From Methanotrichaceae archaeon (GTDB lineage Archaea; Halobacteriota; Methanosarcinia; Methanotrichales; Methanotrichaceae), in the NCBI GenBank assembly GCA_963803145.1, contig CAWDLW010000017.1:193188-257187 (forward strand): a stretch of DNA of 64,000 nt. The letters are read 5' to 3'. How positions within the stretch are numbered: the stretch's first letter is position 1; every line of letters starts with the position of its first letter. The notes beneath the pieces are model-generated. The model was not told the origin of the DNA and did no database searches. It saw nothing but the letters and a program-made list of their open reading frames with translations. Position numbers and translations under genes: made by a program. Below are positions 15,548-26,690 of this stretch, piece after piece.

Positions 15548-17158
15548 CTAGGATAAACCGTGGGTAAACGGTGCGAACACTGAGATTATCAGTGATGTCA
15601 GCACAAGCCAGGCCAGAATCGCAACGACAGTCCTTGTAAGTCTCTCTGCCTCCTTCACGCTAACAAATCTCTCAAATCCAGCCTGGACGAGATCTTTGAA
15701 TACATATCCTCCATCAAGGGGTACTGCAGGCAGGCAATTGAACAGACCTGCATAAAGGTTGATCCAGCCTATCCAGAGAAGTGTATTTGCTATCCAGAAG
15801 AAGTAGCCTCCAAGAGGCGCTGCCCACCCAGTCGGCACGAAGAAGTTAGTAGTCCATCCGCTAAAACCCTGGAATCCTCCTGATATCAGCCCTGAAATGC
15901 CTGTGAAGGGCAATGTGAGAAATATCGCAAAGAACCCAGAAATTCCTGCATAGGGCAGCCTCTTCAGTATATCCAGGAACTGTCTGGCAGGGAACTCCTG
16001 TAGTGTCATGCCGTCGATGTAGACTGCATTTCCTGAGATCGCTATACCTATCTGGCCTGTACCATCGAATTTAGGTGCTAGAGTGATGTTATAGCTTTGG
16101 CCGGTCGCAGCAGTAATAGTGATATTTTGCCCTGGACGAGTTGTATTCATGTATCTTCTGAAGCCATCGAGGTTACCAATTTTCATCCCGTTGATCTCAG
16201 TTATGACAGATTTTTCTGGAATGCGAGCATTTGCGGCAGGTGATCCATCGAAGATAGAGGCTACAAGGATCCCTTGAGCTGGAGTGCCTTGAATCGTAAT
16301 ATTCTTTTCATAGTTATCAAGAAGCGTCTCCATATGTGCCGGACCGTGCTGTAGTGCTTTGTAAACATCCGTAAGGTTATTCGTTTCCTTTGAGTTCACA
16401 TCCAGAATTATCGTCCTGCTCTGTAGGCCGGCTTGCTCGGCAATGGAACCGCTCTGGACGTCCGAGATCATTACCCTATCAACAGGCGCAATTGAGCCTA
16501 TGACAGGTCCAAAGAAAAGGGCTATGGCAATGGCGGCCACTATAAAGTTTGATATTACGCCAGCCGAAATTATCCTTATTCTGGCCCCTTTGCCGACTAT
16601 CGGCGGCTTATCCTTTGTCCCGTAGAGTTCTTCGTCATCGGGCTCGACGAATGCTGCTATGGGCGCTATCAGGATCGTCACAAGTCCCATTGATTTAACG
16701 CGAACCCCCTCTACCCTGCTGAGTATTCCATGGGAGAATTCGTGTACGACCATAGTCACGAAAAGGGCTATCCAGCCCCAGACAAATGGTATGTACTGGT
16801 TGACGCCTGGGATCAGCAGAATATTCCTGGGCGCGTTGTAGCTGCTGGGCTCAGGAGGAGATTTGATCATAAGATATGCCATGAGCAGAACAAGCACCAG
16901 AAAATAGCCCATGCTTAGTACAACGAGAGGGACGCCAGCAGTCGCGATGACTCTCCACAGCGTTTTGGGCCTGCTTAGCCTATCAAGCAGGTCAAGCCCG
17001 CGTTTAGTTCGTATGAATATCGCGACAGGAATTGGTCCCCATGTAGTTATCCCTCGTCGTTTCCAGTTCTCGCTGTTTTTTATGGGCCAAAGAATGATCG
17101 AGTATAGACCTATAGCGCAGGCCGCTATCAGTATCCAGTCATCGGTGGTCAATTGCAT
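15548..17158 (-). CDS. Site-2 intramembrane metalloprotease (M50) with PDZ domains
   Basis: HEFSH and NCLPAVPLDGG motifs; two PDZ-like segments. Confidence 0.9.
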   Translation of the reverse strand: MQLTTDDWILIAACAIGLYSIILWPIKNSENWKRRGITTWGPIPVAIFIRTKRGLDLLDRLSRPKTLWRVIATAGVPLVVLSMGYFLVLVLLMAYLMIKSPPEPSSYNAPRNILLIPGVNQYIPFVWGWIALFVTMVVHEFSHGILSRVEGVRVKSMGLVTILIAPIAAFVEPDDEELYGTKDKPPIVGKGARIRIISAGVISNFIVAAIAIALFFGPVIGSIAPVDRVMISDVQSGSIAEQAGLQSRTIILDVNSKETNNLTDVYKALQHGPAHMETLLDNYEKNITIQGTPAQGILVASIFDGSPAANARIPEKSVITEINGMKIGNLDGFRRYMNTTRPGQNITITAATGQSYNITLAPKFDGTGQIGIAISGNAVYIDGMTLQEFPARQFLDILKRLPYAGISGFFAIFLTLPFTGISGLISGGFQGFSGWTTNFFVPTGWAAPLGGYFFWIANTLLWIGWINLYAGLFNCLPAVPLDGGYVFKDLVQAGFERFVSVKEAERLTRTVVAILAWLVLTSLIISVFAPFTHGLS

Positions 17159-17311
17159 ATGGCTTAAATTTCCTCGCTTATTTTCTCACTATATTTCTAT
17201 CATGCACTGTATATAAACCCACTATAAACTCACGGAGAAAACTTAAGCCCTATGCCTATCGTATTAAGCTGTACGAAAATTGATGCTTAAAAGGATAATA
17301 GTAGTAGCCCT

Positions 17312-17854
17312 CTACAGGGCATCCTTATCTTTAAGCACTTCTTTGGCCATCTCCTGGTGTTTCCTCTCAAGGAAGCTGTAGACATTGCCATGAGGCGCAC
17401 CTTCGAGAAGCATTTCAATGGCCGCACGTGCGGTCGTGATCTGTTCAGGATAGCCTAGGAGTGAAACGGTCTTTCCATATACTGATACTTTGGCACCTGA
17501 CAGCCTCTCCATGATCTCTCGAGTCTTGCCATCCTTGCCGATTATCCTGCCTTTGATGCGTGCCATATCGCTTTTTGTGCCCACCATCTTCGAGAGGTCT
17601 AGGACATCTAGCATCAGCATTTCATCATCAAGAATGGGGAGTGCTCTCTCCGGGGAAAAGCCCCTGCCGATGGCACGTACAAGATCGGTCACTCTCATGG
17701 CGGAAATTGGGTCTTCAGAGGATTCTACTGTCACCATGCCGCTCTCGCTGTCTATTCCCAGTGCTGTCTTCGTCTTCTCCTCGATAAGGCACTTCATCGA
17801 TCCGTTCGGCCCTACCAGCACTCCGATACGTTCCTCAGGAATCTTGATCTGCAA
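17312..17854 (-). CDS. KH-domain rRNA-processing protein (Dim2/Pno1-like)
   Basis: RIGVLVGPNG, AIGRGFSPE, GRIIGKDG; conserved aIF1A-RIO1-KH gene order. Confidence 0.9.
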   Translation of the reverse strand: MQIKIPEERIGVLVGPNGSMKCLIEEKTKTALGIDSESGMVTVESSEDPISAMRVTDLVRAIGRGFSPERALPILDDEMLMLDVLDLSKMVGTKSDMARIKGRIIGKDGKTREIMERLSGAKVSVYGKTVSLLGYPEQITTARAAIEMLLEGAPHGNVYSFLERKHQEMAKEVLKDKDAL

Positions 17855-17868
17855 AATGATAACCTCCT

Positions 17869-18660
17869 TTACTGTTCGTCATGTTTTTCTGCGTCATTTT
17901 TTAGCTTAGCCCGGATCTCTTCCTCCGAGCCAATGCCATATTTCTTTTGGAAATAGCGTGCGATATTCTTTATATCGCGCTCAAGGAATTTCCTTGCCAT
18001 GGGGTGGTCCAGGGTTACAGACTGTCCCATGTCTATGATGATTGGCTCGTCGTCGTAAAGCACATTGAACTCGCTTAGATCCGAGTGCACAAGGTCTGCC
18101 TTATTGTAGAGCAACGAGATGTACTCTACAATCTTATCAAAGGCGCGCTCTGCCTCCTCTGGGCCAAGTTTAATGTCTTTCAGCGTCGGAGCTGGACTCC
18201 CCTTCTGACCAATAAGATCCATTATGAGAATATTCTCTCTCGTGTCTATAGGATGGGGCACACGAACGCCGACCTCTTCAGCGCGTTTAAGGTTCCTAAA
18301 CTCTTTTTTTGCCCAGGCAGAAACAATCGCCCTTCTGGTGCCCTTGATGTTTCCGAATCTGGGATCTCCATGTAAGTAATCCTGCATGGCCTTGAAGTTG
18401 CTAGTGGAGACCCTATATATCTTGATGGCCAGATCCTTCTGGCCGCAAGTTGCATAAAAGATGTTTGCCTCTTTGCCGGTGCTTATAGAACCGCCAAGGG
18501 TGTCAATGATGCCCTTGCTTGCAAGATCATAAAGGTTCTTAAGCGTGCGAGTATCAAATACGGCCTCCTGAACCTGCAGGTCATCGGAGTCCTTGATCCT
18601 CGTGCGAAGAACATCGATTTGAGTATCGAACTTTTCTTCGTTCTTATCCTGCTTGCTCAT
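17869..18660 (-). CDS. rio1: RIO1 serine kinase
   Basis: [31 protein letters not shown]. Confidence 0.9.
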
Positions 18661-18977
18661 GGAGTGCCTTTTAGGAAGCCCTTACGTTGCAGCCAGTCCA
18701 CCTGAGGTCCTGTGTATCTCCAGATCACGTCCGCCTTGTCGTCTTGAAACTCCCATGGTACGATTATGACTACGTCACCCTCTCTGATCCAAATTCTCTT
18801 CTTCATCTTGCCGGGTATGCGGGCCATGCGAGTTACGCCATCGAGGCCCCTGACCCTTATTCTGTTTGAGCCAAGCAGCCCCTCTACAAAGCCAAACAAC
18901 TCTCTTTCCTGCTTATGCGGAAGACGTACCCTGGTTACAACGCCCTCTTCATCACTCTTACTCTTACTCTTATACAG
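18657..18977 (-). CDS. eif1a: Translation initiation factor aIF-1A (probable CTG start)
   Basis: [28 protein letters not shown]; frame extends upstream through VTRVRLP to CTG at 18977 behind GAGGTGG; in-frame TGA further upstream. Confidence 0.85.
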
Positions 18978-19137
18978 CTTACCACCTCTAATGATAAAAG
19001 TACCTCAGATCAATGGAATTTTGATTTCCTCTCGCACATATAGATTATAGATTTCCGGCGAGCTAAAGAATCTTTGGCGCCTCAAGAATAGAATCCATCT
19101 TAAATAGTTAAAGGTTGTGACGATCGGCTAATAATTA

Positions 19138-19211
19138 TGGGCCCGACGCGATTCGAACGCGCGATCCCCGCCGTGTGAAGGCGATGTCATAACCAGCTAG
19201 ACCACAGGCCC
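19138..19211 (-). tRNA. tRNA-Val(CAC)
   Basis: GGGCCTG...CGGGCCCA; anticodon arm TCGCC-TTCACAC-GGCGG; GTTCGAATC. Confidence 0.95.
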
Positions 19212-19331
19212 ACGAAAAGATGCAATAGGACAATTGTTATTAGTATCTTACCCTATGACATGGCATCCCTTCAGATCTCATAAGACGAAGCACAACATTT
19301 TAAATATCAATTCGCGAAATCAACTCTTCGA

Positions 19332-20123
19332 ATGAGTTTAAATTGGTCTAACCCAGTATATTCCTTATACGAGCGATTTCTTAGACGTGACGTACTGGCT
19401 GGACCATCTGTTAAGCACGTAGCCGTAATCCAGGATGGTAACCGGAGATATGCTAGAAGGATGGGCTTGCCTACCTTCCTAGGCCACAACCAGGGAGCAG
19501 AGACGGCGAGCAATGTCTCCGACTGGTGTCTTGAGCTGGGAGTAAAACATCTTACGGTCTATGCATTCTCAACAGAGAACTTCAAGAGGGATGAGGAGGA
19601 GAAGAGCTACCTCTTCGATCTAATAAAGAGCAAGTTTATAGAGATGTATAACTCTGAGAGGCTCCATCATAACCGCGTTCGTGTTAGGGCGATAGGCAGA
19701 GTTGATCTCCTTCCCAAGGATCTTCAGGAGGCAATACGCAGAGTGGAGGAGGCCACTCAGGGATATTCGGGTCTTTTCCTGAATGTTGCACTGGCCTATG
19801 GTGGACAATGTGAACTAGTTGATGCTGCTAAGGCTTTAGCCCGCGAGGTGGCAGCTCACAAGATTAGCGCAGGATCTGTAGATGAGAGTATCATAGCCAA
19901 ATACCTTTATCCGCATAATGGTGTCCCAGTTCCTAAGGTTGACCTGATAATAAGGACCGGTGGCGAGTTTCGTACCTCAAACTTCCTGCCCTGGCAGGCG
20001 AACGGCAACGAGTGTGCAGCATATTTTTGCGCACCATATTGGCCAGAATTTAGGAAGATTGATTTTCTAAGGGCGATACGAATCGCTCAGATAAGATTAT
20101 CATCAAGGGGCCAACAGGCTTAA
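19332..20123 (+). CDS. uppS: Polyprenyl (undecaprenyl) diphosphate synthase, cis-prenyltransferase
   Basis: HVAVIQDGNRR, YAFSTENF, DLIIRTGGE.RTSNFLPWQ. Confidence 0.92.
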   Translation: MSLNWSNPVYSLYERFLRRDVLAGPSVKHVAVIQDGNRRYARRMGLPTFLGHNQGAETASNVSDWCLELGVKHLTVYAFSTENFKRDEEEKSYLFDLIKSKFIEMYNSERLHHNRVRVRAIGRVDLLPKDLQEAIRRVEEATQGYSGLFLNVALAYGGQCELVDAAKALAREVAAHKISAGSVDESIIAKYLYPHNGVPVPKVDLIIRTGGEFRTSNFLPWQANGNECAAYFCAPYWPEFRKIDFLRAIRIAQIRLSSRGQQA

Positions 20124-20152
20124 TTACATGAAGCATGCCATGAACGCTCATT

Positions 20153-20242
20153 GTCCCGATGGGGTAGTGGACATCCCGAAGGCCTGCGGAGCAATCCCTG
20201 CGTAGAAAGCCTTCAACCCGGGTTCGAATCCCGGTCGGGACG
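20153..20242 (+). tRNA. tRNA-Arg(GCG) with 18-nt intron (20190-20207)
   Basis: Acceptor stem GTCCCGA/TCGGGAC; anticodon GCG at 20186-20188; intron at 37/38 forms a bulge-helix-bulge (CTGC pairs with GTAG). Confidence 0.9.
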
Positions 20243-20292
20243 CTTATTTACGAGCAATTAAGAAAATATAAACTCAAAAATCACATTATAGT

Positions 20293-20618
20293 CATTCGGT
20301 TCCACCAAAACGGAATGACTCAGAGAGCAGCGAGCGCTAACAAGGGTTCTCGCTTTTCCTCTCTGAAAGCTTTTCGCGTGCCAGTTTTTTACCGGCTTGA
20401 TCGAAAAAGTGACTTACGCTTCGATATTCTCCAGTCTCTACCAGCTTAACAGCTTCATCATAGAGCTCTGGCTCTATACTGATATTGATTTTCTTCCTTG
20501 GGGTTCTCGCCATGCGGTTAGTATTCTCGGTTCTTTGTTTAAATAGATTACTACCAGGTGTTCAACAGTAAGCTTAAAATATTAGTAGTGCTTAGTGTTC
20601 ATTTGGTGGAACCGAATG
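20293..20618. repeat. Perfect 17-bp inverted repeat (20293-20309 / 20602-20618)
   Basis: CATTCGGTTCCACCAAA and TTTGGTGGAACCGAATG. Confidence 0.85.
20337..20513 (-). CDS. Ribbon-helix-helix (CopG/Arc-like) regulator, 58 aa, absent from the ORF track
   Basis: Manual translation: MARTPRKKINISIEPELYDEAVKLVETGEYRSVSHFFDQAGKKLAREKLSERKSENPC. Confidence 0.75.
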   Translation of the reverse strand: MARTPRKKINISIEPELYDEAVKLVETGEYRSVSHFFDQAGKKLAREKLSERKSENPC

Positions 20619-20939
20619 CGTAAAAGAACAATTCCAGAGCTTAAGCTCCCGGTCTCTCAGACCGCTGAAGCTGTAGAGTCTTTAATAACCACAATCCTTG
20701 GCAGTAAGCCTGAAGGCATTGAGAAAATCACGTCGGTTAATATAGAAGAAGCTAAGGCTACAGCTGAGGAATCCAGGCGCCAGGCTCGCGAACACCAGGC
20801 AAAGATGGGGCTGCTTAGGAACATAGCTAAAATCGAGAGAGGTGAGCCCGTTGATAGCATCGTGCCTGTGCTCAGAAAAGCAAATAGCAAGCTGAGAGGC
20901 GAGTACGGAGGGGTTTATGATGGACCCATCTATTTCTGA
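20616..20939 (+). CDS. Hypothetical protein (mobile-element-like)
   Basis: ORF with GGTGG before ATG 20616; divergent from the RHH gene; overlaps the next ORF. Confidence 0.55.
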   Translation: MRKRTIPELKLPVSQTAEAVESLITTILGSKPEGIEKITSVNIEEAKATAEESRRQAREHQAKMGLLRNIAKIERGEPVDSIVPVLRKANSKLRGEYGGVYDGPIYF

Positions 20940-21492
20940 AGGCACGGGGCCTGCGCATCCTGATCATAAGAAACGACCTGCTTCTTTAGCCTCCCTAGAA
21001 GAGATTAACAGGGCTCTTGATGGCCTTCAACCTTTGGCATCAAAAATCGATGAGTTGAAGACAGGGATTCTTGATAAAGAGGCTGATATCTTAAATGTGA
21101 TCCTGCAGAGGATCTCGCCTCTCATACCGTTGCTCAGCAAGGACTATGAAGCCTGTTATCGTCATGAACTTATACTTCTCACAAAAACAGAACGTGTGAA
21201 ACTTGAGGATTCTGTAGATTTCTACAGTAATTACATGCTGATCTTATACGAAAACGGCCAATTGATAGATCAGCATTGCTATGGTGAAAACACCATTAGC
21301 ACAAGGATCGGCTGGGAGATCATTAACGAGACCTATCTGACGTCCACAGCCGCTATAATCAATTTCGGCCTTGATGCCATAGTAGAGGGCTTGATGAAGA
21401 TTATCAAGGATGCTAGGGAACTCTTTGTCTTGAAAAGCGAACTCGAAAATAGATTTATCGCCTTGACGGGTTTGCTGGAGGCTCTGCAATGA
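20917..21492 (+). CDS. Hypothetical protein
   Basis: 191-aa ORF with GGAGG upstream, coupled to the previous ORF. Confidence 0.6.
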   Translation: MMDPSISEGTGPAHPDHKKRPASLASLEEINRALDGLQPLASKIDELKTGILDKEADILNVILQRISPLIPLLSKDYEACYRHELILLTKTERVKLEDSVDFYSNYMLILYENGQLIDQHCYGENTISTRIGWEIINETYLTSTAAIINFGLDAIVEGLMKIIKDARELFVLKSELENRFIALTGLLEALQ

Positions 21493-21662
21493 GAACACTG
21501 AATGTAAGGGAGGTGAAAGGAATGCCCACTAGAAATTATGCAACGGTGTGGGAAAGGAGAATGAATTGCCAGGTCTTGTGAAGATAGAGATAGGTTGCCA
21601 TCATGTCAAACCTTTTTTAGGTGCTAGTTCATATATTAACTTGACAGCTCATCTCTAAGCTC

Positions 21663-22814
21663 TTACCTTTCCCAAATCGGGCGATAAAGTTTATCCGCCT
21701 GAGCACTAACGAAATCGGGATAATTATAAACGAGAGTAGCGCCCTCATATTCCTGTTTTTCGGATAGCTTCTCATGGATCTCATCGACTTCGCCTATAGC
21801 CGAGTCCGCTTCAACGTATGATTGAGCGATCACAACATGGTGCTTTTTTGAGAATAAAGGCTTATCGCCTACTAAGCGCGCCCCTTTGATCATAGCGATC
21901 CCAGTAGCTGTAACTCTTCCACCGAGTTTAGCTACTTTGAGAGGTCCAGCCGTCAAAGCATAGCGGCAATCTAAATCTTTTACATCAATTTGCTCCAATA
22001 TTCCGCTTGCCTTAGATAGAAGGTTGCGTTCTACCTCATAATGGATTTGACGAACAGCATCAAGAGCCAAGCTACTTTTGGAGCTTTTGTTGCATGGGAA
22101 TAGAGCAATGAATCCGTCTCCCGCGAAGCAATCAAATACTCCACCGGCATCCTCAATAGCGTTTGCCATCATTTCAGAATACATAGCTAGAAAACTGCTA
22201 AAGTCTTTTGGCCCCAGTTGTGTGAGGGTTTTGGTAGAGCGCACTATGTCGGAATAGACCACAGCTATTTTCTTTGCCCTTAGCAAAGATTGTACACCTT
22301 TTGCTTGAGAAGGCTTTGCAGATTCTAGTTTCTTCATTTTATTATAATCAATACTTTCTTTTAGACATCGTCCCAATTTTATCGCAGATTTGTATTTCTC
22401 AACTGATATTAAGGGATCTACACCTACTGAACTTAATTCTAATCGTCTTGCTTCGTCAATTATATTTTTAAATTCATTATATTTCGAAATAAAATCGTCA
22501 GGGCTGATATCAATGCAAGAAAATAGCCTTTCGTTATCTTTGTATATTGGGGCAAGTTCGTCATTTATTCCGACCCATATTAATTTATAGCAATCTAATG
22601 TTAACCGTGTCAAATGATTTCTTGCTTTTAGAATATTCTCTTCTCTCTGAGTTTCAGTTAAGTGTGGGTTATAGAACTGAAAAACGTGACCAAGAGCGTT
22701 TTCAAATTCTACGAGAACTTGCTGAGGTTTCCTTCCAAAATGAGCAACAGCATCTGCGTACGCGCTAATACATTCGCTTCTATAAAACTCTGCTAATTCA
22801 TCAATATTTGACAT
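21663..22814 (-). CDS. Helical N-terminal domain fused to an atypical class III nucleotidyl cyclase
   Basis: C-terminal AVVYSDIVRST and FAGDGFIALF (two metal-binding Asp), RYALTAGP, MIKGARL; N-terminal EFENALGH...KARNHLTRLTLDCYK. Confidence 0.7.
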   Translation of the reverse strand: MSNIDELAEFYRSECISAYADAVAHFGRKPQQVLVEFENALGHVFQFYNPHLTETQREENILKARNHLTRLTLDCYKLIWVGINDELAPIYKDNERLFSCIDISPDDFISKYNEFKNIIDEARRLELSSVGVDPLISVEKYKSAIKLGRCLKESIDYNKMKKLESAKPSQAKGVQSLLRAKKIAVVYSDIVRSTKTLTQLGPKDFSSFLAMYSEMMANAIEDAGGVFDCFAGDGFIALFPCNKSSKSSLALDAVRQIHYEVERNLLSKASGILEQIDVKDLDCRYALTAGPLKVAKLGGRVTATGIAMIKGARLVGDKPLFSKKHHVVIAQSYVEADSAIGEVDEIHEKLSEKQEYEGATLVYNYPDFVSAQADKLYRPIWER

Positions 22815-22825
22815 AAATTAGCACA

Positions 22826-23044
22826 TCATGAAGCCAATATATCATCTATCATCTCGTTTAATTCGATTTTTTCTACTGGGACAATGCTACCCCTATTAAG
22901 AACTACATTTGTTATAATCTCTTCTGTTTTCAATTCTCCTCTACCACACCTTTTTTGAACAAATTCATCGATCTCTTCTGTAGTAGAAAAATCCTCTATA
23001 TTGATATTGAATACAGCCTCAAAGATCTCTGCCCTTGGCTTCAC
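22826..23044 (-). CDS. Small acidic hypothetical protein, probably co-transcribed with the cyclase fusion
   Basis: 72-aa ORF ending 11 bp before the cyclase start; upstream TATA-like tract. Confidence 0.65.
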   Translation of the reverse strand: MKPRAEIFEAVFNINIEDFSTTEEIDEFVQKRCGRGELKTEEIITNVVLNRGSIVPVEKIELNEMIDDILAS

Positions 23045-23412
23045 GATTAATCCCGTCCTGTTATACTTATACCTGCTTTATAAATCTTATGTTTATTCAA
23101 TCCATGTAGGGTATATAAATTTTTTTCGATTCAATCTCTGACTATCGGACTTTGACGCACCTTTTATTCTTTAATTGCACACGCCATAACCCTGAATGGC
23201 TCTCTTTCTTTATTTCAAATTATAGTTCGCGAATACAATAACCTTCTTGAGCATCTTCTAAGTTTATCTGGAAATGGATGCCTAAGTTTATACATTTGAC
23301 CCACAAGTTAATTGGCGTTCATATTGAATCTTAGCTCCGGGCAAGACACTCTCTTCTGCGCCATTGCCAAGGATTATTTTTATATGGTTAGATAACTCTC
23401 TTTTACAGGCTT

Positions 23413-24741
23413 ATGGTACTTGATAATTTAGGCGGATCATTGCGCAGTGCGCTACGGAAGATCGCATCTGCAAACAAGATAGATAAACCCCTAATCGAGG
23501 AGACGGTCAGGGAGATTCAGCGTGCTCTTTTGCAGGCCGACGTGAATGTTAAGCTGGTGATGCAGCTTTCCAATAAAATAAAGGAGAGGGCTCTGGATGA
23601 AAAGCCGCCCACAGGCATGAACCCGAGAGAGCACGTCATCAACATCGTCTATCAGGAACTCATAAACCTTGTAGGAAAAGGCTCCGATATCCCACTAAAG
23701 AAGCAGGATATAATGCTCGTGGGCCTTCAGGGCTCAGGAAAGACAACAACTGCAGCAAAGCTGGCGACATATTTCCAACGAAAGGGCCTGCGTACTGCTG
23801 TTATCTGCGCGGATACATTTAGGGCGGGCGCATATGATCAGCTCAAAGCCCTTTGCGAAAAACAGGGCATCTTCTTTTATGGCGAGAGGGGCAACACTGA
23901 TGCACCAGCTGTCGCTAGAAACGGCCTTGAGGCCGCGAAGAAATACGATATCAGAATCATAGATACGGCGGGCAGACATGCACTGGAGGCAGATCTGATC
24001 AAGGAGATGGAGGAGATCCATGCTGTAGTAAATGCAGATCAGAAGCTGTTGGTGATGGATGCGGCCATTGGACAGCAGGCGAGTGAGCAGGCTAGGGCTT
24101 TCAATGACGCAGTCAACATAACTGGCGTCGTTATCTCTAAGCTTGATGGAACCGCCAAGGGAGGCGGCGCACTGAGCGCGGTCGCGGAGACCAAGACATC
24201 AGTTGCTTTTATCGGCGTTGGAGAGACGCCCAGCGACTTAGAGCGCTTTGAGGCCGATAGGTTCATTTCACGATTGCTGGGAATGGGCGATATAAAGACG
24301 CTCATTGAGCGGGCGCAGGAGATTCAGGCTACTGAGGAAGTGGATGTTGAATCCATGATGAGGGGCAAGTTCACCCTCAAGGATATGTACACCCAGATGG
24401 AGGCCATGAACAAGCTTGGGCCTCTGAAACAGATAATGCAAATGTTGCCGATGGGAGGCCTAGGCATCGAGCTATCAGATAAGGAGTTCCAGGCTACAAA
24501 AGACAAGTTGGATAAGTATCGGGTCATCATGGACTCAATGACTGATGCTGAACTAGAGGACCCGAAGATTATAACCGCCTCTCGGATAAAGCGTATTTCC
24601 TACGGAAGCGGAAGTTCACCCGAGGTTGTTCGAGAGCTTCTTAAGTCTCACCAGGCGATGCAGAAGGCAATAAAAGGTATGAAGGGCATGGGCAAGATGA
24701 ATATGAAACGCCTTATGAAAAGGTTCGGCCCGATGGGCTAA
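23413..24741 (+). CDS. srp54: Signal recognition particle protein SRP54
   Basis: [27 protein letters not shown]; Met-rich M domain. Confidence 0.97.
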
Positions 24742-24907: not shown

Positions 24908-25603
24908 CTAACTGTAATTGGTAGTAATGGCCACATCGGATGTAGTGATCTGGCCGCTATCGTTCGTGCTTGAATAACTTTTTCTCTCGATTCTATGATC
25001 GGTGCCGTTTGATGTAGCGCCCTGTATTGATTCCTGTGTTGCTGCCGAGTTTCTTACATCTACCGGTGCTGCTTGGTTCAGATAATTGCCCAGTATTATG
25101 GTAGTCCCGCCTAAAGCATTTGAGGGCTTTATACTTCCGGTTACAGTTCCTGATAGGGTGATTACGCCAGCTGAATACGTATCATATTTACCTGTAAGAG
25201 ATGTGCCCGATTGAGAGACCTTAAGCCTATACATCTCAGAGCTATTGATGACCAGGACGGATAGGTCTATATTACTCCCTGAGATATTTCCTGAGGCACT
25301 GACTCTGCGGCTATTTCCCTCTGCGGTTATGCTTCCGTAACCCATGAGAACATCTTTGCTCTGCTGAGCGTTTAGCTCAATATATTTCATACTGGAACCT
25401 AACAAGCCTAAAGACCAGATTCCCGTCAAGTTTACCTGATTTCCTGACCCTGTCCTAGCCTCTATGGCGCCGTCCGATCCAACTTTCAGTGGTGGAATTA
25501 TTCCCTTTCCTGTTGTCACAGTCCCTGCATAACCCTGCGATGAAGCCTGAGCCACTAGGAAGACGAGAACTAGAACTAATATCAGCAGTCTAATCAATCC
25601 CAT
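24908..25603 (-). CDS. Exported beta-barrel-like protein (paralog 5 of 5)
   Basis: Signal peptide; GIWSLGL...QQSKDVLMGYG...YRLKV core. Confidence 0.75.
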   Translation of the reverse strand: MGLIRLLILVLVLVFLVAQASSQGYAGTVTTGKGIIPPLKVGSDGAIEARTGSGNQVNLTGIWSLGLLGSSMKYIELNAQQSKDVLMGYGSITAEGNSRRVSASGNISGSNIDLSVLVINSSEMYRLKVSQSGTSLTGKYDTYSAGVITLSGTVTGSIKPSNALGGTTIILGNYLNQAAPVDVRNSAATQESIQGATSNGTDHRIERKSYSSTNDSGQITTSDVAITTNYS

Positions 25604-25698
25604 AATCTTAACCCCTCCTTTTTACGATAATGAAGATATTAAAAATAGTGGTATCTCGGGCAGAAGCCGAGAGGAAAGGCTGACCTGCCCAAGACTCT

Positions 25699-26394
25699 TC
25701 AGATAGAGTTATTCTGCAATTGCTGGCCTGGATACTGTGAATACTGCTGAACATTTGGTTGAGCAGCAGGCTGTGCCGCTGTCCCGGCAGGAGCTACTAT
25801 ATTTCCAAAGGCTACTCCTGGCTGGGTTATCTCCGGTGCGCTGAAGAGGTAGTCGCCTCCCATCGATCCTGGCCTGACCGTCAGACTGAATCTATACATG
25901 TTATTGGGAGATCCTGTTGGGATAACATACATCGCCAATTTGTCACCCAAAAGCGTTCCTCCGGCAGTGACCTGAGATATGCTGCTTCCGGATGTTAGCT
26001 CTCCCGAGCCGAAGACTGCGTCTCCTGACTGGAACAGCGATAATGTTAGGGTCTTTGTGCCGATATCTGTAAGAGTAAATGACCAGACTCCTGCGATATA
26101 TATAGGCAATCCTATAGCGATAGGCGTCCTAACGCCCTTCCCTGCCGCTCCTGGAGTCATGCCCGTACTTTTGCTGATGAGGAAGAGGCTTTCATTTCTG
26201 AACGATAGGTCGCTATCACTTGGATTAGTGCTGGATCCAGTAGTAACCTCTTGCTTTATCTGATAGCCCGACATGTCCTGATTCGGGAACGGCTGGTTCA
26301 CTTTATCCTTCGGCCCAAGCGGCATGTCGGCAAATGCTGGAATAGCCAAGCATACAACCAGGGCGAGTGTTAATACTACACTTTTGAATTTCAT
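25699..26394 (-). CDS. Exported beta-barrel-like protein (paralog 4 of 5)
   Basis: Signal peptide MKFKSVVL; GVWSFTLTD...LFQSGDAVFGSG core; Q-rich tail. Confidence 0.78.
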   Translation of the reverse strand: MKFKSVVLTLALVVCLAIPAFADMPLGPKDKVNQPFPNQDMSGYQIKQEVTTGSSTNPSDSDLSFRNESLFLISKSTGMTPGAAGKGVRTPIAIGLPIYIAGVWSFTLTDIGTKTLTLSLFQSGDAVFGSGELTSGSSISQVTAGGTLLGDKLAMYVIPTGSPNNMYRFSLTVRPGSMGGDYLFSAPEITQPGVAFGNIVAPAGTAAQPAAQPNVQQYSQYPGQQLQNNSI

Positions 26395-26690
26395 CTCCAC
26401 ACTCCTCCTAATTTGGATCAGCATTATCTCTCACAGGGTTTAAAGGTTGCCCTTTTATGGGCTTGTAGCTGGAATTGTCATCAAAAACAGGTATATTAGC
26501 ACTGTCTTGAAATTATTTCTCAGGCATTTGGCTACGAAGATGGTTTAATATTTAACTTTTGCTGCAATTCGCACAACTCTGGATTCATGAGGATTTATAG
26601 TGCCAGCTATATCCTTTTCTCCAAGATCTTCCAGGCGGTTGCCAATATGCTTGTCTAGATAAAGAAAACAGGGCCTTTAGGCCCAATGAT

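What the first reader, a model, noticed from the sequence alone, without database searches (positions are those of the whole stretch)
21663..23044. Two-gene module with an atypical class III nucleotidyl cyclase fusion in a tRNA-adjacent island: candidate new cyclic-nucleotide defence or toxin-antitoxin system
Seen: a 72-aa acidic ORF lies 11 bp upstream of a 383-aa ORF in AT-rich DNA between tRNA-Arg and SRP54, on the opposite strand to flanking genes. The C-terminal ~200 aa keeps both metal-binding Asp motifs of class III cyclases (YSDIVRST, FAGDG). The base-specifying position is Cys (DCFAGD), and the N-x3-R motif reads I-KGA-R. Known: that position is Lys in adenylyl and Glu in guanylyl cyclases, and Pycsar PycC pyrimidine cyclases deviate at these same positions. 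The N-terminal ~165 aa is a separate helical domain (E..NA..H...KA..HL.R..LDCYK) in visibly more AT-rich DNA, suggesting a fusion. Inference: a sensor/effector-cyclase fusion with a small partner, making a non-canonical cyclic nucleotide. No PycTIR/PycTM-type effector is adjacent.
Basis: partly seen in the sequence, partly recalled or inferred. Interest (0 to 1): 0.78.

Follow-up and report, generated by a model that had tools for sequence, protein, structure and literature searches.

The report
Conserved two-gene cassette with swapped-in cyclase
A small protein and a helical-domain protein form a widespread, unnamed gene pair of archaea and their viruses; here the pair's usual membrane anchor is replaced by a divergent nucleotide cyclase, which suggests a new modular defence or toxin-antitoxin family.

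Summary

The C-terminal half is a class III cyclase domain by sequence and by fold. It keeps both metal Asp residues and the catalytic Arg. It has Cys at the Lys/Glu base-specifying site and Ile in place of the catalytic Asn.

The 72-aa ORF and the N-terminal 165-aa helical domain ("N-dom") are a conserved gene pair. In metagenome and viral loci, 49 of 51 distinct N-dom genes have a homologue of the small ORF directly upstream. All 56 full-length N-dom proteins end in a hydrophobic anchor. Other N-dom proteins carry TIR or caspase domains instead.

The window's cyclase fusion is the only one found. Its junction coincides with a sharp GC break.

The pair lies in a 3.05-kb insertion that a same-genus genome lacks. 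A complex model supports binding of the small protein to N-dom's most conserved surface (ipSAE 0.66, best control 0.00).

The genome has no cNMP-binding domain and no adjacent Pycsar effector.

Best reading (0.5): a toxin-antitoxin-like conflict cassette with interchangeable, proximity-activated outputs, here a cyclase. The cassette is absent from Pfam, NCBIfam and PADLOC.

The parts
22826..23044 (-). Gene for the 72-aa acidic small protein, the partner in the cassette.
   Evidence: ORF; pI 4.37. It is homologous to the small ORFs directly upstream of N-dom genes in other genomes and metagenomes. The 38-sequence alignment A5 has F8 and G52 invariant. No Pfam, PADLOC, NCBIfam or PHROG family matches it. 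It is predicted to bind N-dom through its residues 55-72.
22815..22825 (-). 11-nt spacer between the two genes.
   Evidence: Read from the sequence. Homologous pairs have gaps mostly of -4 to 26 nt.
22305..22814 (-). Codons 1-170 of the 383-aa ORF. They encode N-dom, a seven-helix domain of an unnamed family.
   Evidence: 145 of the 150 listed representative hits match only this part. H43, N60, H67, R70, D74, K77 and E126 are invariant in 70 sequences. The AF2 model has pLDDT 96.7. No solved fold relative was found. GC is 0.333. A weak match to phrog_9168, of unknown function, has E 3.3e-11.
21663..22304 (-). Codons 171-383 plus the stop codon. They encode a divergent class III cyclase homology domain.
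   Evidence: PADLOC PycC models match, best E 2.1e-8. PDB phmmer finds Cya2 at 1.6e-5. The AF2 model has pLDDT 80. Foldseek gives 185 PDB matches at E <= 1e-3, the best being CyaC 1wc1 (E 3.9e-10, TM 0.66/0.71). D189, D233 and R313 are kept; C229, T302 and I309 occupy the specificity and Asn sites. GC is 0.448.
23077..23119 (-). Two TATA-like boxes upstream of the small ORF: TTTATATA at 23112-23119 and TTTATAAA at 23077-23084. They are candidate archaeal promoter elements.
   Evidence: Read directly from the sequence. The consensus is recalled and no tool tested it. This is inference only.
20297..23349 (.). Strain-specific insertion of about 3.05 kb between tRNA-Arg and SRP54. It contains the module.
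   Evidence: In blastn against same-genus genome G002, window 17000-20296 and 23350-24733 are collinear with only about 100 bp between them. G001 carries a different 4.2-kb insert at the same place. No flanking direct repeat longer than 17 nt was found.
20337..21492 (.). Three other ORFs of the insert: 58 aa (20337-20513, -), 114 aa (20595-20939, +) and 191 aa (20917-21492, +). They are probably not part of the module.
   Evidence: No family hits. None occurs in any of the cassette or cyclase loci that were fetched. The 191-aa ORF belongs to a family of about 22 copies within this genome, and the 58-aa ORF recurs beside one of those copies.

Best explanation
The locus is a variant of a widespread, so far unnamed two-gene conflict cassette. 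Gene 1 encodes a ~72-aa acidic protein. Gene 2 encodes a ~165-aa helical domain (N-dom) followed by an output part.

In nearly all relatives the output is a single C-terminal membrane-spanning helix. In a few it is a TIR or caspase domain. Here, uniquely, it is a class III cyclase domain, joined by a recent recombination.

Proposed mechanism (inferred). The small protein docks its C-terminal helix into the conserved groove of N-dom and keeps the protein inactive, as an antitoxin does. When the small protein is lost or displaced, for example during virus infection, N-dom self-associates and brings the output parts together. All known outputs need such proximity: a single helix to form a pore, TIR and caspase to form active oligomers, and a class III cyclase to form its active site across a dimer. 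In this archaeon the result would be a burst of a cyclic nucleotide, or loss of the NTP substrate. The base specificity would be unusual (a Cys/Thr pair).

Shown: the anatomy, the conservation of the pair, the fold, the insertion and the uniqueness of the fusion. Predicted: the binding. Inferred: inhibition, oligomerisation, the trigger and catalysis.
For: **The pair is conserved.**
- A homologue of the small ORF lies directly upstream, on the same strand, of 58 of 60 N-dom ORFs that have at least 250 nt of upstream DNA. Counting distinct proteins, this is 49 of 51. The loci are 1 viral and 76 metagenome loci.
- The same holds in 6 archaeal genome loci.

**Outputs vary.**
- 56 of 56 full-length N-dom ORFs have a C-terminal hydrophobic segment.
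- Other N-dom proteins carry TIR_2/TIR-TM (P0074), the CAP12/PycTIR-type TIR (P0116, Pfam 4.3e-29), a caspase (P0111, 2e-14) or a weak C-terminal TIR_2 match (P0032, E 0.0016, 19.4 bits, below Pfam's 28-bit cut-off).
- In a quick tree the window's N-dom is sister to a membrane-anchored form (P0002, SH-aLRT 95). The seven fusion proteins need at least 4 changes of architecture.

**Binding.**
- The ESMFold2 complex scores ipSAE 0.66, 0.66 and 0.69 against a best control of 0.00. That mark was reached by 58 of 80 solved complexes and 2 of 110 mismatched pairs. The runs agree in at least 50% of contacts, and the partner's pLDDT is 51-65.
- The interface includes the invariant or near-invariant N-dom residues D74, K77, W80, R123 and E126, and residues 55-72 of the small protein.

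**Conflict or mobile character.**
- N-dom occurs in 16 of 401 genomes sampled from the phylum, G000 included.
- It was not found at this locus in 40 relatives.
- It lies in a 3.05-kb insertion beside tRNA-Arg.
- It is AT-rich against the genome.
- One copy sits just after a tail-sheath gene in a 39-kb viral contig.
- Of 145 neighbouring ORFs, 4 are Fic/SoFic. Three transposase families match 3, 2 and 2 ORFs. Also present are a type I R-M specificity subunit, IetA and MADS genes.

**The cyclase half looks functional.**
- It has the class III fold.
- All 10 residues invariant across 65 relatives are kept, including D233 and R313. The other metal Asp, D189 (in at least 90% of relatives), is also kept.
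Against: - No experiment supports any step.
- The fusion is a singleton. Nothing matches both halves among the 150 listed of 317 hits in 1.84 billion representatives, among 77 cassette loci or among 80 cyclase loci. Selection for it cannot be shown.
- The GC break at the junction says the fusion is recent.
- Lys is nearly invariant in the cyclase family at the site where the window has Cys229. This could mean loss of substrate binding rather than new specificity.
- The catalytic Asn is absent. This is true of the whole family.
- The last 27 residues are modelled below pLDDT 50.
- No cNMP-binding domain is found in the genome, so no receptor is known.
- Neighbours of the cassette are mostly ordinary genes. 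The enrichment for defence genes is weak, and it was not tested against a background.
- Self-association of N-dom was not tested.
- The small protein could be an activator or a sensor instead of an inhibitor.
Confidence: 0.5

Rival explanations
1. A Pycsar-like signalling system. N-dom, with the small protein, senses infection. The cyclase makes a non-canonical cyclic nucleotide as a second messenger for an effector encoded elsewhere.
For: PADLOC finds only PycC models for the cyclase half (5 models, best E 2.1e-8). The solved cUMP synthase 7r65 is among the fold matches (E 3.3e-8). In the cytidylate cyclase EaPycC a specificity residue (R142) lies four residues before the second metal Asp (D146). 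That is the spacing of C229 and D233 here (passages of PMC11224242; the mapping is my inference). The Pucsar preprint, section 5, describes immune cyclase clades with many N-terminal fusions.
Against: No effector is adjacent. PF00027 was not found in the genome. The conserved cassette works without any cyclase in all the other loci examined, so N-dom is not a dedicated cyclase sensor. The PycC hits are weak (31.9 bits or less). The family profile prefers CyaB (1.9e-19) to PycC (3.6e-8).
Confidence: 0.2
2. A recent, selectively neutral or decaying chimera. Recombination between an incoming AT-rich cassette and a cyclase gene destroyed the membrane anchor and the cyclase's own N-terminus. The intact ORF has no working function.
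For: The fusion is a singleton. The GC/GC3 step is sharp at about codon 180. The near-invariant Lys is replaced by Cys. No receptor domain is present. Other cassettes decay: some copies contain internal stops or frameshifts.
Against: The ORF is open over 383 codons. The join falls exactly between the two domains (N-dom ends at about residue 165 and the first cyclase strand starts at about 182). Every invariant residue of N-dom, of the small protein and of the cyclase family is retained. The closest cyclase relative (P0003, 46-47% identity) also has Cys at this site, so Cys is not a private lesion.
Confidence: 0.2
3. An assembly chimera. Two strain variants of the same hotspot were merged in this metagenome-derived genome, so the 383-aa ORF exists in no cell.
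For: The genome has 51 contigs and 6.77% contamination. The locus is a variable hotspot. The composition changes at the join.
Against: A chance merge would need a shared k-mer between unrelated genes, would have to stay in frame and would have to fall at a domain boundary. Both flanks of the insert are collinear with a relative. The contig is 257 kb long.
Confidence: 0.05
4. An ordinary physiological signalling cyclase of the organism, with a regulatory N-terminal domain.
For: Class III cyclases with N-terminal sensor domains are common (established knowledge). The closest cyclase relative lies among housekeeping genes (MmgE/PrpD and solute-binding proteins).
Against: No full-length match was found in 40 relatives, which include two genomes of the same genus. 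The gene lies in a strain-specific insertion. N-dom's other partners are TIR, caspase and membrane anchors. The genome has no PF00027 and no other PF00211 match.
Confidence: 0.03

Closest known systems
Pycsar (PycC cyclase with a PycTIR or PycTM effector) and the related Pucsar systems
   Same: Both have a class III-type cyclase domain with non-canonical base-specifying residues, in a strain-variable locus. PycC models are the only PADLOC hits. The outputs seen on N-dom proteins (TIR, including the CAP12/PycTIR type, and membrane helices) are the effector types of Pycsar (preprint section 5).
   Different: No cNMP-binding effector lies beside the gene, and no PF00027 match was found in the genome. 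The similarity to PycC is weak (31.9 bits or less). The conserved partner is a 72-aa protein that Pycsar lacks. In the cassette, TIR and membrane parts are fused to N-dom directly. They are not activated through a diffusible nucleotide.
Canonical class III adenylyl/guanylyl cyclases (CyaC 1wc1, CyaB 3r5g, Cya2 2w01, Rv1900c 1ybt)
   Same: The fold matches (Foldseek E 3.9e-10 to 3.6e-8, TM 0.57-0.74). Both metal Asp residues and the transition-state Arg are present.
   Different: Cys stands in place of Lys/Glu, and Ile in place of the catalytic Asn. Pfam PF00211 gives no match at E <= 1. The N-terminal partner domain is of an unknown family.
Type II toxin-antitoxin modules
   Same: A small acidic protein is encoded directly upstream of a larger one, with a short or overlapping gap. 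Its C-terminal helix is predicted to cover the larger protein's most conserved surface. The distribution is sporadic and mobile.
   Different: There is no match to any known toxin or antitoxin family. Toxicity, neutralisation and DNA binding by the small protein are untested. The 'toxin' has exchangeable output domains, which is more typical of abortive-infection effectors.
Modular effectors of CBASS/Thoeris/Pycsar-type immunity (one regulatory domain combined with TM, TIR or caspase-like outputs)
   Same: One regulatory domain (N-dom) is found with TM, TIR and caspase outputs. The tree requires at least 4 changes of architecture.
   Different: In those systems the regulatory domain binds a nucleotide made by a partner enzyme. 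The cassette has no such enzyme. N-dom's conserved surface is predicted to bind a protein helix.

Membership tests
Class III nucleotidyl cyclase homology domain | Cyclase (palm-like beta-alpha-beta-beta-alpha-beta) fold | tested here: met
   The AF2 model has pLDDT 80. Foldseek finds 185 PDB matches at E <= 1e-3, all listed ones cyclases. The top match is CyaC 1wc1_A (E 3.9e-10, TM 0.66/0.71, rmsd 3.1 over 181 columns).
Class III nucleotidyl cyclase homology domain | Two metal-binding Asp residues | tested here: met
   D189 and D233 align with the conserved Asp columns.
Class III nucleotidyl cyclase homology domain | Base-specifying Lys (adenylyl) or Glu (guanylyl) four residues before the second Asp | tested here: not met
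   The residue is Cys229. It aligns with Glu of Cya2 and Lys of 6fht. Lys is present in at least 90% of the 65 relatives.
Class III nucleotidyl cyclase homology domain | Transition-state Asn and Arg (N-x3-R) | tested here: not met
   Arg313 is present but the Asn position is Ile309. The whole family has a hydrophobic residue there, aligned to the Asn of CyaB's VNLASRL.
Class III nucleotidyl cyclase homology domain | Match to Pfam PF00211 above its cut-off | tested here: not met
   There is no Pfam match at E <= 1. The genome-wide PF00211 search finds nothing at E <= 0.01.
Pycsar system | The cyclase belongs to the PycC clades | tested here: inconclusive
   Five PycC models match, but weakly (best E 2.1e-8, 31.9 bits). 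The family profile scores CyaB at 1.9e-19 and solved PycC 7r65 at 3.6e-8. No phylogeny with reference PycC sequences was made.
Pycsar system | An adjacent effector with a cNMP-binding domain plus TIR, or a multi-pass TM protein | tested here: not met
   PADLOC gives no hit on the four other ORFs of the insert. PF00027 was not found in the 99.3%-complete genome.
Pycsar system | Virus-triggered synthesis of cCMP or cUMP | not testable with these tools
   This needs an enzyme assay and an infection experiment.
Small protein + N-dom cassette (unnamed; defined here) | A homologue of the small protein directly upstream on the same strand | tested here: met
   The window's 72-aa ORF aligns with 37 such ORFs (A5, 20-44% identity). 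The HMM E-value in the own genome is 3.1e-30.
Small protein + N-dom cassette (unnamed; defined here) | N-dom with the invariant residues H43, N60, H67, R70, D74, K77 and E126 | tested here: met
   All are present in the window protein, which is the first row of A1.
Small protein + N-dom cassette (unnamed; defined here) | A C-terminal membrane-spanning helix after N-dom | tested here: not met
   56 of 56 full-length relatives have it. The window protein has the cyclase domain instead.
Type II toxin-antitoxin module | The antitoxin binds and neutralises the toxin | tested here: inconclusive
   The complex model supports binding (ipSAE 0.66, best control 0.00). Neutralisation and toxicity were not tested.

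The most novel reading that the evidence does not exclude
The small protein + N-dom pair is a new, largely archaeal and virus-borne immune or toxin-antitoxin family. A protein-gated helical assembly domain drives interchangeable, proximity-activated outputs: a pore-forming helix, TIR, caspase and, in this genome, a nucleotide cyclase. The window would then hold the first archaeal case of a class III cyclase used as the terminal output of such a system. With its Cys/Thr specificity pair it might make a nucleotide other than cAMP or cGMP.
Probability: 0.3. Interest if true: 0.8.

Novelty: new variant of a known kind. Interest (0 to 1): 0.62.

Why it matters
**An unnamed module.** The work exposes a gene pair that is common in environmental archaea. 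It was found in 76 metagenome loci, 1 viral contig and 16 of 401 sampled genomes. It has no entry in Pfam, NCBIfam or PADLOC, and sources name its members 'hypothetical protein'.

**A handle on function.** N-dom combines with TIR, caspase, membrane and cyclase outputs. This pattern marks the regulatory modules of immune systems, so the family is a concrete candidate for a new defence or toxin-antitoxin type in archaea, where few such systems have been tested.

**Archaeal cyclic nucleotides.** A 2023 review (PMC10249747; passages read) states that no archaeal enzyme for cGMP, cCMP or cUMP synthesis has been characterised. An archaeal cyclase with an unusual specificity pair is therefore a useful test object.

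**Evolution in progress.** The GC step at the junction shows an effector swap recent enough for both donor compositions to remain visible.

Tried and rejected
**Searches that found nothing.**
- The word-based homologue search with the whole 383-aa protein and with the 72-aa ORF found only the queries themselves. HMMER over the representatives and HMMs on fetched loci were needed instead.
- N-dom has no solved relative. The PDB profile search's best E is 0.15. Foldseek found nothing at E <= 1e-3. The VIA wide search's best Z is 9.6 with rmsd 7.3 Å on dynein linker and other generic helical bundles, which is below the level meaningful for helical proteins. HEPN was considered because of the conserved His/Arg residues. 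It was not supported: no R-x4-6-H motif (the motif is recalled) and no HEPN chain among the significant hits.
- The ESM Atlas gave only unnamed clusters below 0.8 for N-dom and nothing for a small-protein homologue.
- The small-protein profile found nothing meaningful in the PDB.
- The search for related loci with the whole protein in genome contigs confirmed no relative.
- tblastn of N-dom found no match in named phages or plasmids.
- The search for longer N-dom fusions (476-2000 aa) found none, which is weak evidence.
- No conserved neighbour was found for the cyclase relatives in 80 loci.
- No flanking attachment-site repeat was found around the insert.

**Sequencing runs.** No RNA holder was listed. 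The two DNA runs that were laid hold only 223-nt and 208-nt contigs within the cyclase part. None bridges the junction. The join is therefore neither confirmed nor denied.

**Not available.** The earlier-findings tool was not open. Supplementary tables of the Pucsar preprint (the accession list of its tree) could not be seen. They might already place relatives of this cyclase in its 'immune clade 1'.

**Literature.** Two searches and passages of five papers turned up no description of N-dom or of the small protein. A family without a name cannot be searched by words, so this is weak evidence that it is unpublished.
Full report
**1. Observation.**
The two ORFs are as described. The 383-aa ORF is at 21663..22814 (-). 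The 72-aa ORF is at 22826..23044 (-) with a GTG start. The gap is 11 nt. They lie between tRNA-Arg (20153-20243, +) and SRP54 (23413-24741, +). The surrounding genes are of archaeal type: a RIO1 kinase, a PNO1/KRR1-type KH protein and an undecaprenyl-diphosphate synthase family protein. The window is G000:C17:193188-257187 in a 4.13-Mb genome of 51 contigs, 99.3% complete with 6.8% contamination.

**2. The C-terminal half is a class III cyclase domain.**
- *Family scans.* Pfam gives no match at E <= 1. PADLOC gives five PycC models, the best with E 2.1e-8 and 31.9 bits over residues 184-300.
- *Solved structures by sequence.* phmmer finds the guanylyl cyclase Cya2 (2w01, E 1.6e-5) and other class III cyclases.
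- *Relatives.* A scan of species genomes for the motif FD[KC]F[TA]GDG gave 80 confirmed loci. A 65-row alignment of the domain (A7) has 10 invariant columns, all kept by the window: G225, F227, D228, F230, G232, D233, G234, G290, G305 and R313. D189 is kept too.
- *Profile against the PDB.* The A7 profile matches CyaB (1.9e-19), Cya2 and CyaC. It matches the solved pyrimidine cyclases more weakly: 7r65 at 3.6e-8 and 8jsf at 3.9e-4.
- *Fold.* The AF2 model (pLDDT 80; residues 357-383 below 50) gives 185 Foldseek PDB matches at E <= 1e-3. The top one is CyaC 1wc1 (E 3.9e-10, TM 0.66/0.71). The cUMP synthase 7r65 scores 3.3e-8.
Cys229 sits where Cya2 has Glu and where at least 90% of relatives have Lys. 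Ile309 replaces the catalytic Asn, as a hydrophobic residue does throughout this family. Thr302 is at the second specificity position by my mapping onto the canonical YDIWG..VN..R segment, which is recalled.
- *Closest relative.* P0003, a 684-aa Chloroflexota MAG protein with 46-47% identity, also has Cys.
- *Relation to PycC.* The relatives themselves hit PycC models only weakly (E 1e-5 to 2e-13). This group is therefore a distant relative of PycC. Membership in the PycC clades is not shown.

**3. The N-terminal half is a separate, widespread family.**
- *Representative search.* HMMER over 1.84 billion representatives gave 317 hits at E <= 1e-3. Of the 150 listed, 145 match only within residues 1-192 and 5 match only the cyclase half. 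None matches both.
- *Typical members.* Most are about 200 aa, made of N-dom plus a hydrophobic tail.
- *Conserved residues.* A 70-row alignment (A1) has H43, N60, H67, R70, D74, K77 and E126 invariant.
- *Fold.* AF2 gives a confident seven-helix model (pLDDT 96.7). It has no solved relative by sequence profile, Foldseek or VIA.
- *Family libraries.* Pfam, NCBIfam and PADLOC have no model for it. PHROGs has a weak match to phrog_9168, of unknown function (E 3.3e-11). Sources call the members hypothetical proteins, from Euryarchaeota and Altiarchaeales MAGs.
- *Other architectures.* These are TIR_2/TIR-TM + N-dom (P0074, P0122), CAP12/PycTIR-type TIR + N-dom (P0116), caspase + N-dom (P0111) and N-dom + a C-terminal TIR-like part (P0032, P0136).

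**4. The small ORF is the conserved partner of N-dom.**
- *Archaeal genomes.* In loci fetched from genomes of the same phylum, a 71-84-aa ORF lies just upstream of the N-dom gene and aligns with the window's ORF.
- *Environmental loci.* One viral and 76 metagenome loci were fetched. Of 60 N-dom ORFs with at least 250 nt of upstream DNA, 58 have a small-protein homologue upstream on the same strand. Most gaps are -4 to 26 nt. After removing identical proteins the count is 49 of 51.
- *C-termini and fusions.* All 56 full-length N-dom ORFs have a C-terminal hydrophobic segment. None of the 77 loci has a cyclase domain, and none of the 80 cyclase loci has N-dom.
- *No third gene.* No third gene recurs beside the pair in these loci.
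- *The small-protein family.* A5 has 38 rows. It has no Pfam or PDB relative.
- *Own genome.* The genome holds one copy each of the small gene, N-dom and the cyclase domain, all at this locus.

**5. Predicted binding.**
ESMFold2 folded N-dom (A1) with the small protein (A5) three times. The ipSAE scores were 0.66, 0.66 and 0.69, and the best of three controls scored 0.00. In the calibration this mark was reached by 58 of 80 solved complexes and 2 of 110 mismatched pairs. The runs agree in at least 50% of contacts. The partner's pLDDT is 51-65. My own alignments were used, so the calibration counts hold only roughly.

The model supports binding but does not show it. Residues 55-72 of the small protein, its C-terminal helix, contact N-dom residues 74, 77-78, 80-81, 84, 88, 116, 119-120, 123 and 126. 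These include the invariant D74, K77 and E126 and the near-invariant W80 and R123.

**6. Genomic setting.**
- *The insertion.* Against same-genus genome G002, window 17000-20296 and 23350-24733 are collinear with about 100 bp between them. Window 20297-23349 is therefore a 3.05-kb insertion. G001 carries a different 4.2-kb insert there, encoding a PAS histidine kinase. No flanking repeat longer than 17 nt was found.
- *Relatives.* No full-length match was found in 40 relatives. G002 has a distant N-dom-anchor gene elsewhere in its genome.
- *Distribution.* N-dom occurs in 16 of 401 genomes sampled from the phylum, G000 included.
- *Composition.* GC is 0.347 for the small ORF, 0.333 for N-dom (GC3 0.24), 0.448 for the cyclase part (GC3 0.40) and 0.4535 for the genome. 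The step falls at about codon 180.
- *A viral copy.* In a 39-kb viral contig the pair sits right after a tail-sheath gene (phrog_205, E 1.5e-34).
- *Neighbours.* Among 145 neighbouring ORFs of cassette loci, Pfam finds Fic in 4 and three transposase families in 3, 2 and 2. PADLOC finds SoFic in 4, MADS genes in 2-3, and a type I specificity subunit and IetA in 1 each. Most of the rest are ordinary genes, and no background test was made.

**7. Origin of the fusion.**
In a quick tree of 76 N-dom sequences the window's N-dom is sister to the membrane-anchored P0002 (SH-aLRT 95). The seven fusion proteins need at least 4 changes of architecture. The careful search did not finish, and the root is at the midpoint only. 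Together with the GC step, this indicates a recent swap of the anchor for a cyclase domain on an incoming AT-rich cassette. The direction of the change is inferred from the majority state.

The join could not be checked in reads. Two runs hold only 223-nt and 208-nt contigs inside the cyclase part.

**8. Mechanism.**
I commit to a toxin-antitoxin-like or abortive-infection cassette. The small protein caps N-dom's conserved groove. Its loss lets N-dom assemble and activates an output that needs proximity. This is an inference from three things:
- the range of outputs: a single helix, TIR, caspase and a class III cyclase, whose active site forms across a dimer (established knowledge);
- the predicted interface;
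- the gene order.

No PF00027 and no other PF00211 match is found in the genome. A Pycsar-type relay therefore lacks a visible receptor. The cyclase may act through an unknown receptor, by draining an NTP pool, or not at all.

The rivals, with my confidence in each, are a Pycsar-like relay (0.2), a neutral or dead chimera (0.2), an assembly chimera (0.05) and a housekeeping cyclase (0.03).

**9. What is known.**
- Section 5 of the Pucsar preprint (10.64898/2026.08.12.744502; read, passages) describes two immune clades of cNMP cyclases with many fusions. Their effectors are mainly CNBD-TIR and 3TM proteins. It mentions no domain like N-dom. Its supplementary tables were not available.
- Passages of PMC11224242 give the metal Asp and specificity residues of PycC.
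- Passages of PMC10249747 state that no archaeal enzymes for cGMP, cCMP or cUMP synthesis have been characterised.
- Passages of PMC13069673 describe a new Pycsar clade F but nothing like this cassette.

**10. Verdict.**
The main finding is the conserved small-protein + N-dom cassette with exchangeable outputs. The cyclase version is a unique and probably recent variant.

Novelty: new variant of a known kind (toxin-antitoxin-like or abortive-infection modules, and immune cyclases), built on protein families that have no name yet. Interest 0.62.

Noticed in passing
window 20917-21492 (+); G000 contigs C8, C9, C15, C16, C18, C20, C23, C43, C45, C50, C51: The 191-aa ORF of the insert has about 22 paralogous copies (38-60% identity by tblastn) scattered over this genome. 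Only one weak hit (E 2.3e-5) was found in 400 other genomes of the phylum. It matches no family. This is a lineage-specific expanded gene family.
   Followed up: partly
window 20337-20513 (-) and G000:C23:47222-47377: The 58-aa ORF next to tRNA-Arg looks like a ribbon-helix-helix protein; this is read from its sequence and has no significant family hit. It has one paralogue, which lies beside a copy of the 191-aa family. The two may form a recurring divergent pair.
   Followed up: no
window 20153-20243 (+): ARAGORN calls tRNA-Arg(GCG) at 91 nt, longer than a standard tRNA. It probably contains an intron, as many archaeal tRNAs do.
   Followed up: no
L036 4031-8582, L037 3656-8627, L038 3975-8600: In three bacterial MAGs (Verrucomicrobiota, Planctomycetota, Phycisphaerae) an HSP90-like ATPase gene is followed by a second HSP90-like ATPase fused to a cyclase domain of the same family (906-943 aa). 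This recurring two-gene unit may be another uncharacterised system.
   Followed up: partly
L039-L114 (genome-contig loci): Many cyclases of about 330-420 aa, mostly from Bacteroidota and other bacteria, carry the motif FDKFTGDG and an unassigned N-terminal region of about 150-200 aa. They hit PycC models only weakly. They have no conserved neighbour in the 80 loci examined.
   Followed up: partly
L115 3970-6591 (viral contig): The small-protein + N-dom pair is inserted directly after a tail-sheath gene and a 129-aa ORF in a 39-kb viral contig, like a moron inside a structural module.
   Followed up: partly
L026 (G193:C68), L004 (G305:C2), L027 (G280:C74), L010/L020/L023 (G415): Several cassette copies in archaeal genomes have an internal stop codon (TAA or TAG) in N-dom or a frameshift in the small ORF, and G415 holds only fragments. 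Some copies are therefore decaying, unless a TAG is read through.
   Followed up: no
L197 3798-7736 (G001, same genus): At the same tRNA-Arg/SRP54 site the sister genome carries a different insert: a 1106-aa multi-PAS histidine kinase and a 145-aa ORF. The site is a hotspot for variable DNA.
   Followed up: partly
window 24908-26424 (-): Two adjacent ORFs of 231 and 241 aa have N-terminal hydrophobic segments and Ser/Thr/Gly-rich sequence, and no Pfam match. They are probably secreted or surface proteins.
   Followed up: no
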